DNA of 64,000 nt, taken from assembly GCF_054482525.1 (NCBI RefSeq), contig NZ_CM137006.1. One strand, given 5' to 3'. The notes under the pieces are model-generated. The model was given only the letters and a program-made list of their open reading frames with translations, was not told the origin of the DNA and made no database searches. Numbering within the stretch: position 1 is the stretch's first letter; each line of letters begins with the position of its first letter. Both the position numbers and the translations under genes were made by a program. Positions 383 through 56,751 of this stretch are shown here, piece after piece.

Positions 383-1114
383 CTAGCTGCGCTGGCGCAC
401 CGCTTCAAATAAGCAAATTCCGGTCGCAACCGAAACGTTCAGGGAAGAAACACTTCCTGCCATTGGGATGCTGATCAACTCATCGCAATGTTCACGGGTC
501 AGGCGACGCATACCTTCACCTTCCGCGCCCATCACCAGCGCCAGGCGTCCGGTCATTTTGCTCTGATAGAGTGTATGATCCGCCTCGCCTGCCGTACCGA
601 CGATCCAGATATTCTCTTCCTGCAACATACGCATGGTGCGCGCCAGATTAGTCACCCGAATCAGCGGAACGCTTTCTGCCGCGCCGCAGGCTACTTTTTT
701 CGCCGTGGCGTTGAGCTGTGCGGAGCGATCTTTCGGCACAATCACCGCATGAACTCCTGCGGCGTCCGCGCTACGCAGGCACGCGCCGAGGTTGTGCGGA
801 TCGGTTACACCGTCGAGGATCAGCAGGAACGGTTGATCGAGCGAAGCGATCAGATCCGGCAGATCGTTTTCCTGATACTGACGTCCTGGCTTCACGCGGG
901 CAATAATGCCCTGATGCACGGCACCTTCGCTTTTCTCGTCGAGATACTGACGGTTCGCCAACTGGATAACCACGCCCTGGGACTCAAGGGCGTGAATCAG
1001 CGGCAACAGACGTTTATCTTCACGGCCTTTTAAAATAAAGACTTCCTGAAAACGTTCAGGGGCGCGCTCCAGCAGGGCCTGCACTGCGTGGATGCCGTAA
1101 ATCATTTCGCTCAT
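383..1114 (-). CDS. rlmB: 23S rRNA (guanosine-2-prime-O)-methyltransferase RlmB
   Basis: 243-aa ORF, SpoU/TrmH-type methyltransferase sequence recognised as E. coli RlmB; sits directly downstream of rnr as in K-12. Confidence 0.93.
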
Positions 1115-46888: not shown

Positions 46889-46964
46889 GCCCGGATAGCT
46901 CAGTCGGTAGAGCAGGGGATTGAAAATCCCCGTGTCCTTGGTTCGATTCCGAGTCCGGGCACCA
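46889..46964 (+). tRNA. pheU: tRNA-Phe (anticodon GAA)
   Basis: 76 nt GCCCGGATAGCTCAGTCGGTAGAGCAGGGGATTGAAAATCCCCGTGTCCTTGGTTCGATTCCGAGTCCGGGCACCA; copy name assumed from position after yjdC. Confidence 0.96.
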
Positions 46965-47161: not shown

Positions 47162-48427
47162 ATGGCACTGACTGACGCAAAAATCCGGGCTGCAAAGCCC
47201 ACTGACAAGGCTTATAAACTCACTGACGGGGCTGGCATGTTCCTGCTGGTACATCCTAATGGTTCCCGTTACTGGCGTCTCCGTTATCGTATTCTGGGTA
47301 AGGAGAAGACTCTGGCACTTGGTGTGTATCCAGAAGTTTCTCTCTCCGAAGCTCGTACAAAACGGGATGAGGCCCGAAAACTGATTTCGGAGGGGATTGA
47401 CCCTTGCGAACAGAAAAGAGCTAAAAAAGTAGTCCCTGATTTACAGCTCTCTTTTGAACATATTGCACGACGCTGGCATGCCAGTAATAAACAATGGGCA
47501 CAATCACACAGCGATAAAGTACTCAAAAGCCTCGAAACACACGTTTTCCCCTTTATCGGCAACCGGGATATCACAACACTCAATACCCCGGATCTGCTTA
47601 TCCCTGTTCGTGCTGCAGAAGCTAAACAAATTTATGAAATCGCCAGTCGTCTGCAGCAAAGAATATCTGCCGTAATGCGTTATGCCGTACAGTCTGGCAT
47701 CATCAGATATAATCCTGCTCTGGATATGGCTGGCGCATTGACTACGGTACAACGCCAGCATCGCCCCGCTCTTGATCTTTCACGTCTGCCTGAACTTCTG
47801 TCGCGTATTAACAGTTATAAAGGTCAGCCTGTCACCCGGCTTGCCGTTATGCTGAATTTACTGGTTTTTATTCGTTCCAGTGAACTCAGATACGCCCGCT
47901 GGTCTGAAATTGATATTGACAATGCCATGTGGACTATTCCAGCCGAACGCAAACCTCTGCCAGGGGTAAAATTCTCACACCGGGGCTCCAAGATGCGAAC
48001 ACCACATCTTGTGCCACTCAGCAAACAGGCTGTAGCCATACTGACAGAACTTCAGACATGGGCTGGTGAAAATGGTCTGATCTTTACGGGAGCACATGAC
48101 CCGCGTAAACCAATCAGTGAAAATACCGTAAATAAGGCCCTCAGAGTGATGGGGTATGACACAACCAAGGAAGTCTGTGGCCATGGATTCCGGGCGATGG
48201 CGTGCAGTGCATTGATTGAATCCGGCTTATGGTCAAGAGATGCGGTTGAACGTCAGATGAGTCATCAGGAGCGCAACGGAGTACGTGCCGCGTATATTCA
48301 TAAAGCAGAACATCTGGAAGAACGTCGGCTTATGCTGCAATGGTGGGCAGATTTTCTGGATGCAAACAGGGAGGAGTGTATCAGTCCGTTTGAATATGCA
48401 AAAGTTAACAATCCACTGAAAAGGTGA
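47162..48427 (+). CDS. int: P4-family tyrosine recombinase (phage-type integrase)
   Basis: 421-aa ORF MALTDAKIRAAKPTDKAYKLTDGAGMFLLVHPNGSRYWRLRYR (typical P4-Int N-terminus); C-terminal catalytic region with HxxR and the conserved tyrosine region. Confidence 0.92.
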   Translation: MALTDAKIRAAKPTDKAYKLTDGAGMFLLVHPNGSRYWRLRYRILGKEKTLALGVYPEVSLSEARTKRDEARKLISEGIDPCEQKRAKKVVPDLQLSFEHIARRWHASNKQWAQSHSDKVLKSLETHVFPFIGNRDITTLNTPDLLIPVRAAEAKQIYEIASRLQQRISAVMRYAVQSGIIRYNPALDMAGALTTVQRQHRPALDLSRLPELLSRINSYKGQPVTRLAVMLNLLVFIRSSELRYARWSEIDIDNAMWTIPAERKPLPGVKFSHRGSKMRTPHLVPLSKQAVAILTELQTWAGENGLIFTGAHDPRKPISENTVNKALRVMGYDTTKEVCGHGFRAMACSALIESGLWSRDAVERQMSHQERNGVRAAYIHKAEHLEERRLMLQWWADFLDANREECISPFEYAKVNNPLKR

Positions 48428-48652: not shown

Positions 48653-49726
48653 ATGGTCCATCCTTTTTTACAGGTTCAGAATATGACTGGCAAATTACGC
48701 TTTGAAGTGAACGATAACCAGGGCTGTTTCATATTTTCGGAAACCTGGTTTGGCTCGTTGCTGGATGAGTTTGAAGAACTGATTGATGCATACGATGCGG
48801 ATGAAATCAGCGAAACAAGTTACATCAACAAACTCAGGCGCCTTGCCCGACAGGAGAATGACTTTATTGATGTACACGCTCACTTGGCATACGTATTTCT
48901 GGAGCAGAATGCCCCGCGTAAGGCGCTGAATGCTGCCCTTAAAGGGCTGGCAGTTGGCAATCGTCTTATCCCTGAAGGTTTCAGTGGCAGAATCATCTGG
49001 ATACATCCTGACAACCGACCTTTTCTTCGTGCCCTCTATGCGGCAATCCTGGCAAATGCACATTTACGGCGTCATCAGGATGCCATCATGCTCATTGAAA
49101 AAATACTGGATTACAATCCCGAAGATAATCATGGTGCACGCTGGCTACTGGGACCGGAACTGTTACGCACTGGCGCTCATGAACAGGCACGCCATATACT
49201 GCAGGAACATGCAGATGAATTTTCACCTTACTGGTATGAACTCGGCCTTCTGCATTTTCTTAATGGGGAACTGGTAAAAGCTGCAACTGCATTTCGTCGC
49301 GGCTTTGCGGCAAATACTTACATCGCAGAAATACTGTGCGGAAATCTGCATCCATTTCCACTTGCTGTATGGCATAACTTTTCAGGCGGTCCGGATACTG
49401 CCGAAGATTATTATGCCACATACCACCCGTTATGGGGGCAATATCCGGAAGCATTGCTGTTTGTAAACTGGCTCTATAATCATTCCTCTGTGCTGCATGA
49501 ACGGGCAGAAATCATTAAATGCGCCGAAATGCTGATGCAGGAAGATGATTTCGAAATATGCGAAAGTATTTTAAGACAGCAGGAGAAGTTGCGTGAAAGA
49601 ATTGATGAGACGCTTTCTGAGAAAATTGTACAGAAATGCAGAAATATGAATGGTGAATATGTCTGGCCCTGGATATTGCCGTTTTCAGCGGCAGGCATGA
49701 AACATACTGGCATACAGTATCAGTAG
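48653..49726 (+). CDS. Hypothetical protein, helical/TPR-like repeats, function unknown
   Basis: 357-aa ORF (alternative start 48683 MTGKLRFEV); TPR-like helical repeat segments (for example WYELGLLHFLNGELVKAATAFRRGF); no catalytic motif recognised. Confidence 0.6.
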   Translation: MVHPFLQVQNMTGKLRFEVNDNQGCFIFSETWFGSLLDEFEELIDAYDADEISETSYINKLRRLARQENDFIDVHAHLAYVFLEQNAPRKALNAALKGLAVGNRLIPEGFSGRIIWIHPDNRPFLRALYAAILANAHLRRHQDAIMLIEKILDYNPEDNHGARWLLGPELLRTGAHEQARHILQEHADEFSPYWYELGLLHFLNGELVKAATAFRRGFAANTYIAEILCGNLHPFPLAVWHNFSGGPDTAEDYYATYHPLWGQYPEALLFVNWLYNHSSVLHERAEIIKCAEMLMQEDDFEICESILRQQEKLRERIDETLSEKIVQKCRNMNGEYVWPWILPFSAAGMKHTGIQYQ

Positions 49727-50085: not shown

Positions 50086-51588
50086 TTATTTTCCCTTGAC
50101 CGGAAGAATCAGAGGCTGCGGTTTCAGACTGTCTGCCGGTACATTCCTCTCTCCGTTAAAAACCATAACGGGTTCATTATCTTCGTCTGTCAGCAGATTG
50201 AATGGCGGTATATTTTCAGTACGAATGCCGGTCAGCCACTGAAAAATACCTGCGAAATGACGGGCACTGATTTTTCTGCTGACGGACTGATGAGACGTGA
50301 TGTCACTGGCGGTAATAATCAGGGGAACGCTGTAGCCTCCCTGCACATGACCATCATGATGAACAGGATTAGCACTGTCGCTGACCGACAGACCATGGTC
50401 AGAAAAGTAAAGCATGGCAAAATGACGGGAATGCCGGCGAAGGATACCATCAAGCTGCCCGAGAAAGTTATCCAGTTTACTGATGCTGGCGAGGTAACAG
50501 GCAATCTTCCGGGGGAACTGCTCCTGGTAATTATTCGGCCAGGAGTGAAGCCGGTCACACGGGTTCGGATGAGACCCCATCATGTGCAGGAATATCACCT
50601 TCGGAGAGGATTTATCCGCCAGCGCACGTTCTGTTTCCTGTAACAACAACATGTCATCCGTTTTACGGGAAGCGAAGCTGCCTTTCTTGAGGAAAACGGT
50701 ATGCTCCGCATCAGAAGCAATAACAGAGATGCGTGTGTCATGCTCTCCCAGTTTTCCCTGATTGGATATCCACCATGTGCTGTATCCTGCTTTTGCTGCC
50801 AGCGCCACCACGTTGTTGCCGGAATCAGGGTTCTGCTCATAGTCATAAATCAGTGTCCGGCTCAGGGAAGGCACAGTACTGGCTGCTGCCGATGTATAGC
50901 CGTCAATAAATAAACCGGGAGCAGTATTCAGCCACGGTGTGGTTGGCACGGGATAGCCATATACCGACATATAATCCCTGCGCACACTCTCACCAGTGAC
51001 GATAACAATCGTGTCATACAACGGTACACCCGGCAGGATTTTCCAGTTGTCAGCCCCGTGCTGATTCAGTTGTTTATAACGCTGCATTTCACGCAATGTG
51101 TCAGTTGTCCCCACAACAGTTCCTTTAACCATCCGCAACGGCCAGCTGTTTACTGAGCATAATACGAACAGCAGCAGTGCCAGCCAGTTACGGTGACCAC
51201 GGCGGTGTGTTCGCCAGAAAATCACCATGAATACCTGAATCGCGGCACTGACCAGAAAATGATAAACAGGAATCATCCCGGTAAACTCCGCTGCCTCATC
51301 AGTTGTGGTCTGCAGCAACGCGACAATAAAACTGTTGTTGATTTTACCGTACGTCATACCGGCAGGCGCATACAGTGCACAACAGAACAGAAATAACAGC
51401 GCTGTAATGGATGTGAGGGTATTTCTGTGTGCAAGGAGCAGAAGAAGGAACAGCAGCAACACATTCCCGGTGGCATTCTTCTCAGTGTATCCGCATGCAA
51501 TTGTGGTTATTGCAGAAACGACAAAAAAGAATAAAAACAATAAAATCCGGGGGGTGTTACCCGGACAAAACAGTTTTCTGATATTCAT
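50086..51588 (-). CDS. Phosphoethanolamine-transferase-like membrane enzyme (sulfatase/alkaline-phosphatase superfamily, EptA/OpgE-like)
   Basis: 500-aa ORF; N-terminal multi-TM region, then a soluble domain with transferase-like motifs (TGESVRRDYMSVYGY and HMMGSHPNP); AT-rich. Confidence 0.7.
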   Translation of the reverse strand: MNIRKLFCPGNTPRILLFLFFFVVSAITTIACGYTEKNATGNVLLLFLLLLLAHRNTLTSITALLFLFCCALYAPAGMTYGKINNSFIVALLQTTTDEAAEFTGMIPVYHFLVSAAIQVFMVIFWRTHRRGHRNWLALLLFVLCSVNSWPLRMVKGTVVGTTDTLREMQRYKQLNQHGADNWKILPGVPLYDTIVIVTGESVRRDYMSVYGYPVPTTPWLNTAPGLFIDGYTSAAASTVPSLSRTLIYDYEQNPDSGNNVVALAAKAGYSTWWISNQGKLGEHDTRISVIASDAEHTVFLKKGSFASRKTDDMLLLQETERALADKSSPKVIFLHMMGSHPNPCDRLHSWPNNYQEQFPRKIACYLASISKLDNFLGQLDGILRRHSRHFAMLYFSDHGLSVSDSANPVHHDGHVQGGYSVPLIITASDITSHQSVSRKISARHFAGIFQWLTGIRTENIPPFNLLTDEDNEPVMVFNGERNVPADSLKPQPLILPVKGK

Positions 51589-51647
51589 CGGAGTATATCG
51601 ACAACATTATTATGAAGAGAACAGGATAATAAAAATCAGAAATTATC

Positions 51648-51692
51648 TGTAAAACAGATAAAAGACAACCCTGCAGTAATAGACTGCAGGGT
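51648..51692 (-). terminator. Putative intrinsic terminator after the outer-membrane protein gene
   Basis: Perfect hairpin accctgcag-taataga-ctgcagggt with a T-run following it on the minus strand. Confidence 0.6.
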
Positions 51693-51769: not shown

Positions 51770-52510
51770 TCAGAAGTTATAAGTCATACCAAGCATGATG
51801 TCATGACTTTTAACATCAACTTCTGACTTATATTTATCGCCCCACTCGTCCTTGTAACTCACACTGCTGTCACCTGCATCAAGATAGCGATAGCTGAGGT
51901 CCAGAGCGATATCCGGGGTTACGTCATAGCGGACACCCGCGCCAAGGCTCCATGCGAAGTTGTCAGCAGAGCCTGAACGTGACAACGATTCGCGACCACT
52001 GCTTCCGTACTCATAATCCCAGGTACTGATACCGGTTGTTTTCTGGTGAATTCTGGCGTAGCCAATCCCTGCGGATACCCATGGTGTGAATGCGCTGTCA
52101 TTCCGGAAGTCATAGTACGCATTCAGCATTAGTGTGTTGACTGACACCTCATTCTTCAGGTCATCACGCCAGTAACCACCTGACCAGCTGTCTTTATCTA
52201 CGTTATACTTCGAATCAGCTTTTCCACGAGCGTAAAACTCCAGTTCTGTTCGAACCGGAATACTGAACTGCGGATAAAAATCATAACCAGCCGCGATACC
52301 ACCACTGAATACCGTATCATGGTCATCGCCGCCTTTATACTTTGACGTTTCTTCCTCATCTCCTGACAGGAAATGCTGGTCTGAAAGTGACACCACAGAG
52401 GTACCGGCTTTACCGGTCAGATAAAAACCGCTTTTACCTTCCTCAGCACCTGCATTTGCTGCAAATACACAGGCTGTGGCCACCACTGAAACAGCAAAAA
52501 CCTTTTTCAT
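51770..52510 (-). CDS. Outer-membrane beta-barrel protein of the Hek/Hra/Tia (opacity-adhesin/invasin-like) family
   Basis: ORF 51770..52525; start MKKVFAVSVVATACVFAANAGA (signal peptide); alternating amphipathic beta-strand pattern; C-terminal barrel signature ending in Phe (LGMTYNF). Confidence 0.65.
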   Translation of the reverse strand: MKKVFAVSVVATACVFAANAGAEEGKSGFYLTGKAGTSVVSLSDQHFLSGDEEETSKYKGGDDHDTVFSGGIAAGYDFYPQFSIPVRTELEFYARGKADSKYNVDKDSWSGGYWRDDLKNEVSVNTLMLNAYYDFRNDSAFTPWVSAGIGYARIHQKTTGISTWDYEYGSSGRESLSRSGSADNFAWSLGAGVRYDVTPDIALDLSYRYLDAGDSSVSYKDEWGDKYKSEVDVKSHDIMLGMTYNF

Positions 52511-52727
52511 TTCAATTATCTCCATTATTGTATCATCATTTTAATATATATTTTTAATATTTAAAAACCGGACTAAAGGCAGCCTCAACACTCCACACTA
52601 CGGAAGCCAGACTTTTACTCTACACAAAATAAATATATCTTCTCAGTGAGGACGTGAACGCCTGTCTGAAATTATGTGAATACAACCTCCCCAGAATACA
52701 AACAGGCAGGGGCACTGGAGTAACCGA

Positions 52728-53096
52728 TCACAATACTTCTGCCTTTTTATATTTTACCGATAATCTCCGTTTAATATAGTTCTTACCGATTTCATAATCG
52801 GGGTTCCATGTAGATAAATTATGAACACCTATTGCTACTGCACTCGCCACTCCCAGAATTACGGTTGGTGACCATAAAGAACCAGCTAAAGCTGTACTCC
52901 TGTACTCAGTATATACACGACAACTTAATTTCGTTTTCTCTATTTCATGCTCCACTCTTTTTACCGTTTCACTAACATCGGAAACATTTTCGATCACAAA
53001 ACTCTTACGTTCATAAATAAGCTTGCTTAATGTATTTATATCTAAAAATTTCGCATCAAAAGAATCAATCTGTACTGTTTTTTCTTGTGCTGACAT
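52728..53096 (-). CDS. Hypothetical protein with a single C-terminal TM helix
   Basis: 122-aa ORF in an AT-rich segment; hydrophobic stretch ALAGSLWSPTVILGVASAVAIGV; no recognisable domain. Confidence 0.45.
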   Translation of the reverse strand: MSAQEKTVQIDSFDAKFLDINTLSKLIYERKSFVIENVSDVSETVKRVEHEIEKTKLSCRVYTEYRSTALAGSLWSPTVILGVASAVAIGVHNLSTWNPDYEIGKNYIKRRLSVKYKKAEVL

Positions 53097-54404
53097 CTTC
53101 TTTTCCTGGCTGGTATGGCAAGTGACGGAGACAAGAGAAACGTTTTAAGCTCAGTTATCTCCGCCATCACTTTCCACGAATGACAAGTAATTTTGCCTAT
53201 TTTAAAACCATGCAAAAGGCAGGGTAAAAGGAGAAAATTCGATCGAATCGATCGACAAAATCGATCATACATGATGAAGATTTTTTATCGAATCCATAAA
53301 AATAGTGACAGCTAACCGGCGTTGCAGGAACAGTCAGAAATGGGCGTTTGGGAAAGAGCCATAGCACTACGTCGTCGCTGACATAGAGGAACTGTGCTTT
53401 GTTGATAAGATCCTTTATACGGCAACCAATCCACTGGACAAAAGATGAACTACGTAATCACCGGGTTCTCACTGACGAAATACAGAAGTTAATGACACAA
53501 CTGTGCCATGTACCTTGTACAACAGCGGTGGAAAGCTCTCAGAACAATGGAATTGCAGAAAGGTGTTAAAACGATGAAAGCCTTCATACCCAAATCGAAT
53601 GTAAGAACGGCAGTAAAGACTGAATTGCGTAACCTTGCATTAGCTCGAGTATTACACTGCATAGTGTGCAGGGTTATCTCCCATCGAGAAAATATCGGCG
53701 CCAGCGAATAACGTCACCTTAGATGTAGCAGTTGCCAAATAGTGACTCAAGGGCGGGCTTACCGCATACACTGACACTTAGCGGATCGACAGAATATTAT
53801 TAGCAGATCATCCCTGAACGCAACGTAATTATCGTAATAAAGGCTTTTTCTGGCTACCAGGAAGATCTGACATGGCTCTGCTCTGGAACCAGGCCGCAGG
53901 AAGCATCAATCTGGAGTTTATCAGCTACTGGAATTCCGGTGTATTGGCAGCCCCTGATAATCACCTGACCCACGAAGAGCGCTCTGCTTTGCAGAAACTC
54001 TGGGGCGGTTTGGAGACAGGAGATGCCATTTAACGATTATAGGACGTTCTGATGAAGTCCATGATTTTACCTCCGCCTTAATTAACTGTTTTCTTTCTGA
54101 AGAAGAGATTGTCTGGTGGCAATCAGGTGGCATTTTCCCGGATCCCTGGCCCGCTAATATATCCCGGCTGAACTGACGATTAACGCGATATTGCAAATAT
54201 GGCATCTGAATCGATCATGATTTGGCGGCATCCATCTCCGTTCACAGTTTGGCATGCTTCCGATCATTGATTGGCATCCAGCCAGTCACTCCGGGAATTA
54301 ACTCTTTTCACCGCAGTCTCCATTGCCGTGTTTAAACCAATGGAGACGTCAATGTCCAAAAAGAGAATATCCAGGAGCACTATGGATACCTGTTTTAAGA
54401 TCCT

Positions 54405-54954: not shown

Positions 54955-55269
<315 letters not shown>

Positions 55270-55285
55270 TTATGTTGTGGTGAGA

Positions 55286-56034: not shown

Positions 56035-56751
56035 CTACAGGTTAACCCGAACCATATTAAATTCATAATCTTTTAACTGCTCAGACCTGATCACCAGAAA
56101 TCTGCCATTACCTGACTTAAATGATTTTGATAAAACAAGTGTGGTATCATATCTGGCTAAAACATAATACCACCCGTCATTATAATTCATCATTTCATAT
56201 TCTTTCTTGAATTGCGGCTTGTAAAAGCCAACAGAAAATGAAAAAACCCAGAAATATATGACAAAGCCGACAAGACATATTTCAGAAATATGTTTCTTTA
56301 CAAAGATACTCTCTGAAAAACATGATGCTGAAACACGGTGGCCACAGGTTCTTATAAGAAAAACAAGAATAAGGGATACCGCTACTGATAAGGTAAGAAG
56401 TTTTAATGCCAGATGATTCTTTAGCACAGAGAACTCAATCACCACCGGAACAAACAATAAGAATGAGGCAAGAAAAAGTCTGAAAAAGCTCAATTCATGC
56501 ATGCTTGCTTTGTTTTTTATTCCAAGAAAGAAAAGTACTCCCGCGCCCCATGAGAGAAACAGGATGACCATTATAGTAATTGCATGAAACAGGCTTCTTG
56601 CAACATCGTCAATACCTGCACTGACAACCCACCATGGGAAACCATAATAAAAAGAGACACCCCACCCGTAAAAATATGCACTTCCCCATCCGAGACATCC
56701 CATATAAGCCACAAATAAGGAAGAATTTTTGAGCAACGCGTTGCTGTTCAT
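56035..56751 (-). CDS. Hypothetical polytopic membrane protein, function unknown
   Basis: 238-aa ORF in a strongly AT-rich segment; about five predicted TM helices rich in aromatic residues, then a roughly 60-aa soluble C-terminus; no recognisable family. Confidence 0.5.
   Translation of the reverse strand: MNSNALLKNSSLFVAYMGCLGWGSAYFYGWGVSFYYGFPWWVVSAGIDDVARSLFHAITIMVILFLSWGAGVLFFLGIKNKASMHELSFFRLFLASFLLFVPVVIEFSVLKNHLALKLLTLSVAVSLILVFLIRTCGHRVSASCFSESIFVKKHISEICLVGFVIYFWVFSFSVGFYKPQFKKEYEMMNYNDGWYYVLARYDTTLVLSKSFKSGNGRFLVIRSEQLKDYEFNMVRVNL

What the first reader, a model, noticed from the sequence alone, without database searches (positions are those of the whole stretch)
51770..53096. Hek/Tia-like outer-membrane beta-barrel with an upstream small membrane protein of unknown function
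The roughly 246-aa outer-membrane protein has the signal peptide, amphipathic strand periodicity and C-terminal Phe typical of small beta-barrel adhesins and invasins (OmpX/PagC/Hek/Tia/Hra family). Just upstream on the same strand is a 122-aa protein with a single C-terminal TM helix and no recognisable family. Together with the PEtN-transferase-like gene downstream, this is a co-oriented run of three envelope-associated cargo genes.
Basis: partly seen in the sequence, partly recalled or inferred. Interest (0 to 1): 0.45.

Follow-up and report, generated by a model that had tools for sequence, protein, structure and literature searches.

The report
Known Hek adhesin gene with neighbours
The outer-membrane protein is an allele of Hek, an already characterised E. 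coli adhesin/invasin, in its usual pathogenicity-island setting; the small gene in front of it belongs to a real but unstudied protein family that shows no sign of working with Hek.

Summary
On the minus strand lie a 246-aa outer-membrane protein gene (51770-52510), a 122-aa ORF upstream (52728-53096) and a 500-aa phosphoethanolamine-transferase-like gene downstream (50086-51588).

The OMP is not merely Hek-like. It is a Hek allele: 96% aa identity to UTI89 Hek with an identical loop 2, about 97% nt identity to RS218 hek, 90% to Hra1 and 62-63% to Tia. The AlphaFold model is a confident 8-stranded barrel.

The locus sits in a tRNA-Phe island next to a P4-type integrase. The same gene trio occurs in the UTI89 leuX island and in 438 complete E. 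coli genomes.

The transferase is the intact form of the K-12 yjgX-type island backbone gene. A conserved terminator-like hairpin and its own promoter-like site separate it from hek.

The 122-aa ORF is a genuine gene of a Pfam-less family (256 clusters at 50% identity). It has an alpha/beta core interrupted by a hydrophobic Ala/Gly-rich hairpin, not a simple C-terminal anchor. Relatives occur without hek on plasmids and in other genera. Here it sits in a ~640-nt unit behind a duplicated hra-type leader.

Verdict: already known adhesin locus; low interest, with a minor unexplored orphan gene.

The parts
51770..52510 (-). hek: 246-aa Hra-family outer-membrane adhesin/invasin. An in-frame upstream ATG at 52525 would give 251 aa.
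   Evidence: ORF. It is 96% aa identical to UTI89 Hek, about 97% nt identical to RS218 hek, 90% to Hra1 of strain 042 and 62-63% to Tia. Pfam OMP_b-brl matches at 1.5e-20. The AF2 model is an 8-strand barrel with pLDDT 88.9, and its fold matches are NspA, OmpA-TM, Ail and OmpX.
52445..52510 (-). Predicted Sec signal peptide of Hek (residues 1-22, ...NAGA/EE).
   Evidence: Read from the sequence. Strongest hydrophobic window of the 251-aa ORF is at its residues 9-27. AF2 models residues 2-20 as a helix outside the barrel. Five of the nine differences from UTI89 Hek fall here.
52728..53096 (-). 122-aa ORF (RefSeq WP_001275822.1) of an uncharacterised, Pfam-less family. The model is an alpha/beta core with an inserted hydrophobic Ala/Gly-rich segment at residues ~67-91.
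   Evidence: ORF. Homologues and invariant residues. The family comprises 256 clusters at 50% identity. No Pfam, NCBIfam, PADLOC or PDB hit. AF2 model. Family signature R-V-Y-T-x-x-R, about 26 hydrophobic residues, then H-N-x-A-T-x-N-P-D-Y-E-I.
53138..53306 (-). hra-type leader, copy A, now in front of the small ORF. It holds the promoter-like site TTTACC-18-TAAAAT (53228..53199), the palindrome TCGATCGATTCGATCGA with three GATC sites (53241-53266) and a decayed remnant of an hra 5' end.
   Evidence: 80% identical to the region directly upstream of hra1 in strain 042, and 91% identical to the region upstream of tia. Promoter-like site. GATC cluster.
52499..52582 (-). hra-type leader, copy B (more diverged), directly in front of and running into the hek start. 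Weak promoter-like sites lie at 52565..52538 and 52544..52515.
   Evidence: Direct repeats D1 and D3 match copy A at 76% identity with 639-640 nt spacing. Alignments to the 042 and tia leaders. Promoter-like sites.
51668..51692 (-). Terminator-like hairpin (10-bp stem ACCCTGCAG...CTGCAGGGT, then a T-rich tail), 78 nt after the hek stop codon.
   Evidence: The stem is conserved downstream of hra1 (042) and tia (21AR0807) in alignment A4.
51626..51653 (-). Best promoter-like site of the region (TTTACA-16-TATTAT, 10 of 12), 38 nt upstream of the transferase start codon.
   Evidence: Pattern match only.
50086..51588 (-). 500-aa phosphoethanolamine-transferase-like membrane protein. It is the intact form of the island backbone gene that is a pseudogene beside leuX/intB in K-12-type genomes (yjgX-type).
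   Evidence: Pfam Sulfatase plus EptA_B_N. Best PDB relative is E. coli EptC, E = 4.6e-18, with GES, a Thr, GSH and SDHG motifs aligned. All NCBIfam hits are far below their cut-offs. 98% identical to the UTI89 copy. K-12-type pseudogene next to tRNA-Leu and an integrase. Named YjgX/YhbX in PMC6174562.
46889..48427 (+). tRNA-Phe (46889-46964) and a P4-type tyrosine integrase (47162-48427), marking the island border.
   Evidence: The flank is dcuA-cutA-dsbD-dicD, the pheU side. GC falls from about 0.52-0.56 in the core to 0.42-0.49 inside the island.

Best explanation
**Setting.** This is the integrase-proximal end of an ExPEC-type pathogenicity island inserted at tRNA-Phe.

**Hek.** The 246-aa gene is an allele of hek.
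- Shown here: it encodes a Sec-exported, 8-stranded outer-membrane beta-barrel with long surface hairpins.
[quoted passage not shown] It does so by binding heparan-sulphate proteoglycan, and it needs extracellular loop 2.
- Shown here: loop 2 is identical to that of the UTI89 reference allele.

**Transferase.** The downstream gene is the intact yjgX-type island backbone gene.
- Shown: it has an EptA/EptB-like N-terminal membrane domain and a periplasmic sulfatase-fold domain, and residues align with the catalytic motifs of EptC.
- Inferred: it adds phosphoethanolamine to an unknown envelope acceptor.
- Inferred from a conserved hairpin terminator and a promoter-like site: it is transcribed on its own.

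**Small ORF.** The upstream 122-aa ORF is an independent piece of mobile-element cargo.
- Inferred: it is a small cytoplasmic alpha/beta domain held at the inner membrane by a re-entrant hydrophobic hairpin.
- Its family is otherwise found alone in the variable parts of islands and plasmids. It sometimes sits near WYL regulators and is sometimes fused to TerB or TerD, which points to a membrane-stress or defence-type role rather than adhesion.
- In Hek-type loci it sits in a ~640-nt unit that begins with a second, better-preserved copy of the hra-family leader. It is therefore probably switched on by the same signals as the adhesin, and transcripts may read through into hek.
For: **Identity of the OMP**
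- 237 of 246 residues are identical to UTI89 Hek. All differences lie in the signal peptide and first strand, plus A74V.
- About 97% nt identity to RS218 hek, read from an OCR copy of the sequence in the supplement of PMC5539235.
- 90% to Hra1 of strain 042 and 62-63% to Tia.
- Barrel model and fold matches.
- Hek properties as summarised in PMC2553418 and PMC5539235.

**Usual context**
- The UTI89 leuX island has transferase, Hek, the identical 122-aa protein, a GTPase pseudogene and papX in the same order.
- 438 complete E. coli genomes hold the full 3.4 kb.
- 1077 genomes hold the transferase and OMP together, and the same pairing occurs next to tia and hra1.

**Separate transcription of the transferase**
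- Hairpin plus T-run and a 10/12 promoter-like site.
- The hairpin is conserved in three allelic loci.

**Independence of the small ORF**
- Missing from the collinear 042 and tia loci.
- A 71%-identical copy lies on IncFII plasmids between IS110 and DUF2726 genes.
- Relatives sit in unrelated contexts in Klebsiella, E. coli thrW-side islands and Betaproteobacteria.
- None of the partner proteins seen elsewhere is encoded in the window.

**Topology of the small protein**
- AF2 strands before and after the hydrophobic segment form one sheet.
- The segment is about 26 residues, often with a central Pro or Gly, and is bracketed by conserved polar motifs across the family.

**Duplicated leader:**

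**Fusions and neighbours:**
Against: - No expression or functional data were available here. Promoters and the terminator are pattern matches only.
- The RS218 comparison rests on an OCR copy with indel errors. UTI89 was used as a stand-in for the reference allele.
- The small-protein model is only moderately confident (mean pLDDT 70.9). The hydrophobic segment itself scores below 50, so a true transmembrane pass, or an oligomer interface, is not excluded.
- The defence or stress reading rests on a handful of neighbourhoods and fusions, and no single partner is conserved across them.
- In E. coli chromosomes, the >=95%-identical copies of the small ORF are nearly always next to hek (438 of about 500 genomes). 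A Hek-related role therefore cannot be ruled out by distribution alone.
- No terminator-like site was found between the small ORF and hek.
Confidence: 0.8

Rival explanations
1. The three genes form one envelope-remodelling operon. The small protein and the transferase would help Hek to be displayed, for example by adding phosphoethanolamine to LPS so that the short barrel is less masked.
For: - All three genes are co-oriented with short gaps.
- The transferase-OMP pairing holds across the hek, hra1 and tia alleles, with a conserved spacer.
- A Salmonella relative of the OMP has a split sulfatase-domain gene about 2 kb downstream in one of two loci.
- LPS is reported to mask the related PagN (PMC2553418).
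Against: - A conserved hairpin terminator and a promoter-like site separate hek from the transferase.
- The transferase is found in about 3000 genomes, against 1077 that hold it joined to the OMP. It is an island backbone gene that also occurs without any Hra gene, for example in K-12-type genomes.
- OMP relatives in Providencia and Commensalibacter have no such neighbour.
- The pairing can be explained by descent from one 2.4-kb module.
Confidence: 0.08
2. The 122-aa protein is a dedicated partner of Hek, such as a regulator, an inner-membrane sensor or an assembly factor. It would have been acquired together with the distinctive Hek signal peptide.
For: - It is tightly linked to Hek-type alleles in E. 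coli chromosomes.
- It sits behind an hra-type leader, with no terminator-like site before hek.
- Hek differs from Hra1, Tia and the other alleles mainly at its 5' end, next to the insertion.
Against: - Published work used cloned hek, hra1, tia and hes expressed in K-12, and each showed the phenotypes. Hra1 and Tia loci lack the small ORF altogether.
- The family is widespread without any Hra-type OMP nearby.
Confidence: 0.08
3. The 122-aa ORF is a chance open frame or a decayed remnant and is not expressed.
For: - It lies among pseudogenes and IS fragments.
- It has no family assignment.
Against: - The family has 256 clusters at 50% identity, with conserved motifs and lengths of about 105-125 aa.
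- An identical protein is kept in islands at different tRNA sites.
- It has a plausible ribosome-binding site.
- The core of the model is confident, with pLDDT 87-90 over residues 11-60.
Confidence: 0.03

Closest known systems
Hek of neonatal-meningitis E. coli RS218 and UPEC UTI89/536 (Hra family)
   Same: - 96% aa identity to the UTI89 copy, with an identical mature protein from residue 62 on except A74V, and an identical loop 2.
- Same neighbours: transferase, the 122-aa ORF, a GTPase pseudogene, papX and then a fimbrial operon.
- Same kind of island next to a P4-type integrase.
   Different: - Five substitutions in the signal peptide and three in the first strand and loop 1.
- The island sits at tRNA-Phe (pheU side) rather than leuX.
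- It continues into F1C (foc) rather than P fimbriae.
Hra1 of enteroaggregative E. coli 042
   Same: - 90% aa identity.
- Same tRNA-Phe, integrase, transferase and OMP arrangement.
- Conserved spacer and hairpin downstream, and a conserved leader upstream.
   Different: - A different signal peptide.
- No 122-aa ORF: the leader abuts the coding sequence directly.
Tia of enterotoxigenic E. coli and PagN of Salmonella
   Same: - Same 8-stranded barrel family.
- 62-63% identity to Tia and 51% to a Salmonella relative.
- tia also sits next to the same transferase.
   Different: - The surface loops are strongly diverged, especially loop 2.
- PagN is reported to be heat-sensitive and not to autoaggregate (PMC2553418).
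EptC (CptA), EptA/EptB and MCR phosphoethanolamine transferases
   Same: - Sulfatase-fold catalytic domain with aligned GES, Thr, GSH and SDHG motifs.
- An EptA/B-like N-terminal membrane domain.
   Different: - It scores far below every curated NCBIfam cut-off (best 112 bits against 404 for CptA).
- It is shorter, at 500 aa.
- The acceptor substrate is unknown.
- It is island-borne rather than a core gene.

Membership tests
Hra family of outer-membrane adhesins (Hek, Hra1, Hra2, Tia, Hes) | High sequence identity to a reference member over the full length. | tested here: met
   96% to UTI89 Hek, about 97% nt to RS218 hek, 90% to Hra1 of 042 and 62-63% to Tia.
Hra family of outer-membrane adhesins (Hek, Hra1, Hra2, Tia, Hes) | Eight membrane-spanning beta strands with four long surface loops, a cleavable signal peptide and a C-terminal aromatic residue. 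| tested here: met
   The AF2 model has 8 strands with pLDDT 88.9 and an N-terminal helix at residues 2-20. Fold matches are 8-stranded barrels. The sequence ends in TYNF and has A-G-A before the predicted cleavage site. The published Hek topology is cited in PMC2553418.
Hra family of outer-membrane adhesins (Hek, Hra1, Hra2, Tia, Hes) | Intact loop 2, reported as essential for Hek adhesion, invasion and autoaggregation. | tested here: met
   Residues 62-246 are identical to UTI89 Hek except A74V. The loop 2 requirement is taken from PMC2553418.
Hra family of outer-membrane adhesins (Hek, Hra1, Hra2, Tia, Hes) | Heat-resistant haemagglutination, autoaggregation and proteoglycan-dependent adhesion or invasion. 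| not testable with these tools
   Needs expression in K-12 and cell assays.
Ail/Lom/OmpX/PagC family (Pfam PF06316) | A match to the family profile. | tested here: not met
   Ail_Lom E = 0.31 against OMP_b-brl 1.5e-20. The only resemblance is the shared 8-strand barrel fold.
Phosphoethanolamine transferases (EptA/EptB/EptC/MCR) | N-terminal multi-pass membrane domain, a sulfatase-fold domain with metal-binding and Thr nucleophile motifs, and a score above a curated orthologue cut-off. | tested here: inconclusive
   The domains and motifs are present. No NCBIfam model reaches its cut-off. It is therefore a superfamily member, not an orthologue of a characterised enzyme, and its activity and acceptor are untested.
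SLATT / SAVED (CBASS-associated domains; automatic names on two AFDB relatives of the 122-aa protein) | A match to the Pfam, NCBIfam or PADLOC models of these domains. | tested here: not met
   The names appear. No such hit was found for the window protein or for any of 66 family members scanned singly.
   There is one hydrophobic stretch at residues ~67-91 (KD 1.71). It is followed by 31 highly conserved residues whose strands pair with the N-terminal domain in the model. The segment often carries a central Pro or Gly, which favours a hairpin.
Single operon of the three genes | No terminator or internal promoter between the genes, and the gene order kept wherever the genes occur. | tested here: not met
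   A terminator-like hairpin and a promoter-like site lie between hek and the transferase. The small ORF is absent from hra1 and tia loci. Between the small ORF and hek no terminator was seen, so read-through there remains possible.

The most novel reading that the evidence does not exclude
The 122-aa ORF represents an undescribed, widespread bacterial domain: an alpha/beta core with a re-entrant Ala/Gly-rich membrane hairpin and an invariant H-N-x-A-T-x-N-P-D-Y-E motif. The domain would act at the inner membrane in stress- or phage-defence-type systems, as suggested by TerB and TerD fusions and by neighbouring WYL regulators. In Hek-type islands a lone copy would have been captured behind a duplicated adhesin leader that carries three GATC sites. 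It would then be co-regulated, perhaps phase-variably, with the adhesin.
Probability: 0.15. Interest if true: 0.5.

Novelty: already known. Interest (0 to 1): 0.2.

Why it matters
**Main value: correct labelling.** RefSeq calls this gene only 'outer membrane protein'. It is in fact the virulence-associated adhesin/invasin Hek, which is used as an ExPEC marker (hek/hra).

**Three smaller points may help people who work on this locus.**
1. Hek-type alleles differ from Hra1- and Tia-type alleles by a ~640-nt unit. This unit carries a conserved orphan gene behind a second copy of the adhesin leader, so promoter and regulation studies of hek must take two leaders into account.
2. The adhesin gene is linked to a yjgX-type phosphoethanolamine transferase across alleles, while the adhesin's loop-coding part diverges much faster than its neighbour.
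3. The orphan gene belongs to a sizeable family with no Pfam entry.

None of this changes current understanding of Hek.

Tried and rejected
- **Small-protein family profile against PDB sequences.** Nothing below E = 0.4.
- **PHROGs.** One marginal hit of unknown function. **PADLOC.** Nothing.
- **A conserved partner gene for the small-protein family.** Some neighbours recur: a 526/555-aa pair, a 150-160-aa protein and WYL regulators. None is common to all contexts and none is encoded in the window.
- **The SLATT and SAVED names on two AFDB relatives.** No HMM supports them.
- **RS218 genome record.** It is not in the collection, so UTI89 and an OCR copy of RS218 hek were used instead.
- **Papers.** The primary Hek and Hra papers (PMC2258800, PMC2715708, PMC3165684) are not held. 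No paper mentioned WP_001275822 or a mapped hek promoter.
- **Rfam.** Nothing credible inside the finding; the rli40 and rli47 hits are far below their gathering scores.
- **Functional coupling of the OMP and the transferase beyond E. coli and Salmonella.** Not seen in Providencia or Commensalibacter.
Full report
**1. What is there**

Three co-oriented ORFs occupy the minus strand:
- a 500-aa gene at 50086-51588;
- a 251-aa ORF at 51770-52525, whose likely start is the second ATG at 52510, giving 246 aa. GGAG lies 9 nt upstream, and RefSeq annotates 741 nt;
- a 122-aa ORF at 52728-53096, preceded by AGGA.

The region lies about 5 kb inside an island that begins at tRNA-Phe (46889-46964) with a P4-type integrase (47162-48427). 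Best-matching genomes show dcuA-cutA-dsbD-dicD upstream, which is the pheU side. Downstream they show pseudogenes, a 238-aa membrane protein, papX, sfaY and the F1C (foc) fimbrial operon. GC content falls from 0.52-0.56 in the core to 0.42-0.49 in the island. The window is E. coli, and several UPEC genomes match the 3.4 kb at 100%.

**2. The outer-membrane protein is Hek**

Family-level evidence:
- Pfam gives OMP_b-brl at 1.5e-20, with weak Opacity and OmpA_membrane hits. Ail_Lom does not match (E = 0.31).
- The closest solved sequence is Neisseria Opa60.
- A search of 5.8 billion proteins found a graded series of E. coli relatives. The only named cluster was 'invasion outer membrane protein Tia', at 62% identity.

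Reference sequences. The supplement of PMC5539235 lists the Hra-family reference genes with genome coordinates.
- The window gene aligns to an OCR copy of RS218 hek at about 97% nt identity, apart from OCR indels. This includes the Hek-specific 5' end and the WDYEYG codons.
- The RS218 record is not in the genome collection.
- UTI89, whose leuX island is listed as carrying Hek (PMC7545054), has a 246-aa protein that is 96% identical (237/246). All differences lie in the signal peptide (5), the first strand and loop 1 (3), and A74V. From residue 62 on, loop 2 included, the two are otherwise identical.
- Identity to Hra1 of EAEC 042 is 90%.

Structure. An AlphaFold2 model built on 36 relatives has mean pLDDT 88.9, an N-terminal helix at residues 2-20 (the signal peptide) and eight long strands. 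Foldseek places it among small 8-stranded barrels: NspA, the OmpA TM domain, Ail, OmpX and OmpW.

Published properties of Hek, as summarised in held papers (PMC2553418; PMC5539235):
- heat-resistant haemagglutination;
- autoaggregation;
- adhesion and invasion;
- heparan-sulphate proteoglycan binding;
- eight strands and four loops, with loop 2 essential.

This is a known virulence-associated adhesin that the genome records label only 'outer membrane protein'.

**3. How common, and in what company**

| Query | Complete E. coli genomes (of 5426) |
|---|---|
| Any Hra-family gene | 1812 |
| Transferase and OMP together (>=80% of 2.44 kb in one place) | 1077 |
| Full 3.4 kb including the small ORF | 438 |
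| Transferase alone or in part | about 3000 |

- In K-12-type genomes the transferase is a frameshifted fragment beside tRNA-Leu and its integrase. That is the position of the K-12 pseudogene yjgX (my knowledge). PMC6174562 likewise reports YjgX/YhbX-type transferases at all pheU, pheV and selC islands it examined.
- The same transferase, about 175-nt spacer and OMP arrangement is found with hra1 in strain 042, with tia in strain 21AR0807 and with hek in UTI89.
- Next to tia, the transferase, the spacer and the last ~190 nt of the OMP gene stay about 95% identical to the window, while the whole tia gene is about 70% identical. This is the pattern expected for a surface protein that diversifies inside a conserved module.
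- More distant OMP relatives in Providencia and Commensalibacter have no such neighbour. One of two Salmonella loci has a split sulfatase gene 2 kb away.
- I read the pairing as linkage by descent rather than as evidence of joint function.

**4. Transcription signals (pattern level only)**

- Between the hek stop codon and the transferase start lies the strongest terminator-like hairpin of the region: a 10-bp stem at 51692..51668 followed by a T-rich tail. It is followed by the best promoter-like site, TTTACA-16-TATTAT at 51653..51626.
- The hairpin is conserved downstream of hra1 and tia.
- No terminator-like site lies between the small ORF and hek.

**5. The small ORF sits in an inserted unit behind a duplicated adhesin leader**

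- In strain 042 and in the tia locus, the region upstream of the OMP gene runs straight into the start codon.
- In the window, the homologous sequence (53306..53151; 80% identical to 042 and 91% to the tia locus) lies upstream of the small ORF instead. Homology resumes at 52523.
- The stretch in between, about 627 bp, holds the small ORF.
- Repeat finding shows two pieces of the leader duplicated at 639-640 nt spacing: 53190-53222 with 52550-52582, and 53138-53162 with 52499-52523, each pair 76% identical.
- Copy A keeps three features:
  - the promoter-like TTTACC-18-TAAAAT;
  - a palindrome with three GATC sites;
  - a decayed remnant of an hra 5' end, in which GGAGATAACTGAGCTT replaces GGAGATGATTGAAATG, followed by weak similarity to the hra1 signal-peptide codons.
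- Copy B, in front of hek, is more diverged.
- Inference: Hek-type loci arose from an Hra-type locus by a rearrangement that placed the small ORF behind one leader and gave hek a second one. The small ORF is probably expressed under adhesin-type control, and read-through into hek is possible.

**6. What the small protein is**

- It has no match in Pfam, NCBIfam or PADLOC.
- It has homologues at 42-71% identity with 16 invariant residues.
- A profile search of 1.84 billion cluster representatives found 256 clusters. Of the 147 top-scoring members examined, most (89) are at most 130 aa and stand alone.
- The family signature is R-V-Y-T-x-x-R, then about 26 Ala/Gly-rich hydrophobic residues often with a central Pro or Gly, then H-N-x-A-T-x-N-P-D-Y-E-I.
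- The AlphaFold2 model has mean pLDDT 70.9, with 87-90 over residues 11-60. It is beta-alpha-beta-alpha-beta, then the hydrophobic stretch (pLDDT below 50), then two strands that complete the same domain.
- The hydrophobic stretch is therefore an insertion, not a tail. The best Kyte-Doolittle 19-mer scores 1.71, which is borderline.
- I infer a cytoplasmic domain with a re-entrant membrane hairpin. A full membrane pass or an oligomer interface is not excluded.
- AFDB relatives are 'uncharacterized' across Proteobacteria, apart from two automatic SLATT/SAVED names. No HMM supports those names in 66 members.
- Longer family members carry TerB (four), TerD plus Sel1, BspA-type LRR or biotin-lipoyl-like domains.

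Neighbourhoods of family members are varied:

| Context | Neighbours |
|---|---|
| Klebsiella, CP4-type island | Accessory genes, with a WYL protein three genes away |
| Betaproteobacterium | XRE regulator and a 47-aa membrane peptide |
| E. coli, thrW-side island | A YeeP-like GTPase |
| IncFII plasmids (293 plasmid places in E. coli) | Between IS110 and DUF2726 |
| Defence-island-like contexts | SIR2 proteins and WYL-WCX regulators |
| Defence-island-like context | SUKH immunity protein, with a WYL-WCX regulator at the end of the locus |
| Defence-island-like contexts | Restriction-modification genes, RadC and a reverse transcriptase |
| One apparent operon | WYL-WCX, then the TerB fusion, then 526-aa, 150-aa and 50-aa proteins |

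A few partners recur pairwise, but none is universal, and none is encoded in the window.

The most I can say is this: it is a mobile-element cargo gene whose associations lean towards membrane stress or defence, and here it is a lone copy. No Hra-type OMP accompanies it outside E. coli islands.

**7. The transferase**

- It has Sulfatase (1.4e-37) and EptA_B_N domains.
- Its nearest solved relative is E. coli EptC (4.6e-18). GES, a Thr in the nucleophile position, GSH and SDHG align.
- Every curated NCBIfam model is missed by a wide margin.
- It is a phosphoethanolamine-transferase superfamily member with an unknown acceptor.

**8. Verdict**

- The main feature is already known, so interest is low.
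- The residual novelty lies in the orphan family and the duplicated, GATC-bearing leader. Both are untested.

Noticed in passing
window 53239-53266 (minus strand), within the leader upstream of the 122-aa ORF: There are three GATC sites within 26 nt, inside the palindrome TCGATCGATTCGATCGA, just upstream of the promoter-like site. The cluster is conserved upstream of hra1 (042) and tia. It is one of only five places in the 64 kb with at least three GATC sites in 40 nt. It recalls the Dam-dependent phase-variation switches of pap and agn43.
   Followed up: partly
window 55151-55273 (-): A full-length match to the Rfam family isrC, an Hfq-binding island sRNA (93 bits against a gathering score of 39). 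It lies among IS and transposase fragments between the Hek locus and the fimbrial operon.
   Followed up: no
window 56035-56751 (-): A 238-aa multi-pass membrane protein with no Pfam-type name and a strong match to PHROG 1521 of unknown function (6e-90). It is conserved upstream of papX in these islands.
   Followed up: no
window 48653-49726 (+): A 357-aa TPR-like protein sits between the integrase and the transferase. It is present in this island type but replaced by a 3.5-kb AAA-domain gene in the UTI89 and tia-type islands.
   Followed up: no
L003 8012-13836 (E. coli 042, just beyond hra1): A three-gene set (a TerB N-terminal domain protein, an ATP-binding protein and a DEAD/DEAH helicase) occupies the position where Hek-type islands carry the small ORF and pseudogenes. 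Some relatives of the small ORF are fused to TerB, so this may be more than coincidence.
   Followed up: no
L018 898-4937 (gut metagenome contig): An apparent operon: a WYL-WCX regulator, the small-ORF domain fused to TerB, a 526-aa protein with a multi-pass C-terminus (32% identical to a 555-aa protein in L015), a 150-aa secreted-looking protein and a 50-aa membrane peptide. It is a candidate uncharacterised system.
   Followed up: partly
window 799-862: The densest GATC cluster of the window, with six sites in 64 nt, lies in the core-genome part far from the finding.
   Followed up: no
L010 1-5738 (E. coli strain 103): A more distant Hra-family OMP (about 67% nt identity) lies 4.3 kb from a different phosphoethanolamine transferase. 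An AraC-type regulator lies between them and an H-NS-family gene lies upstream.
   Followed up: no
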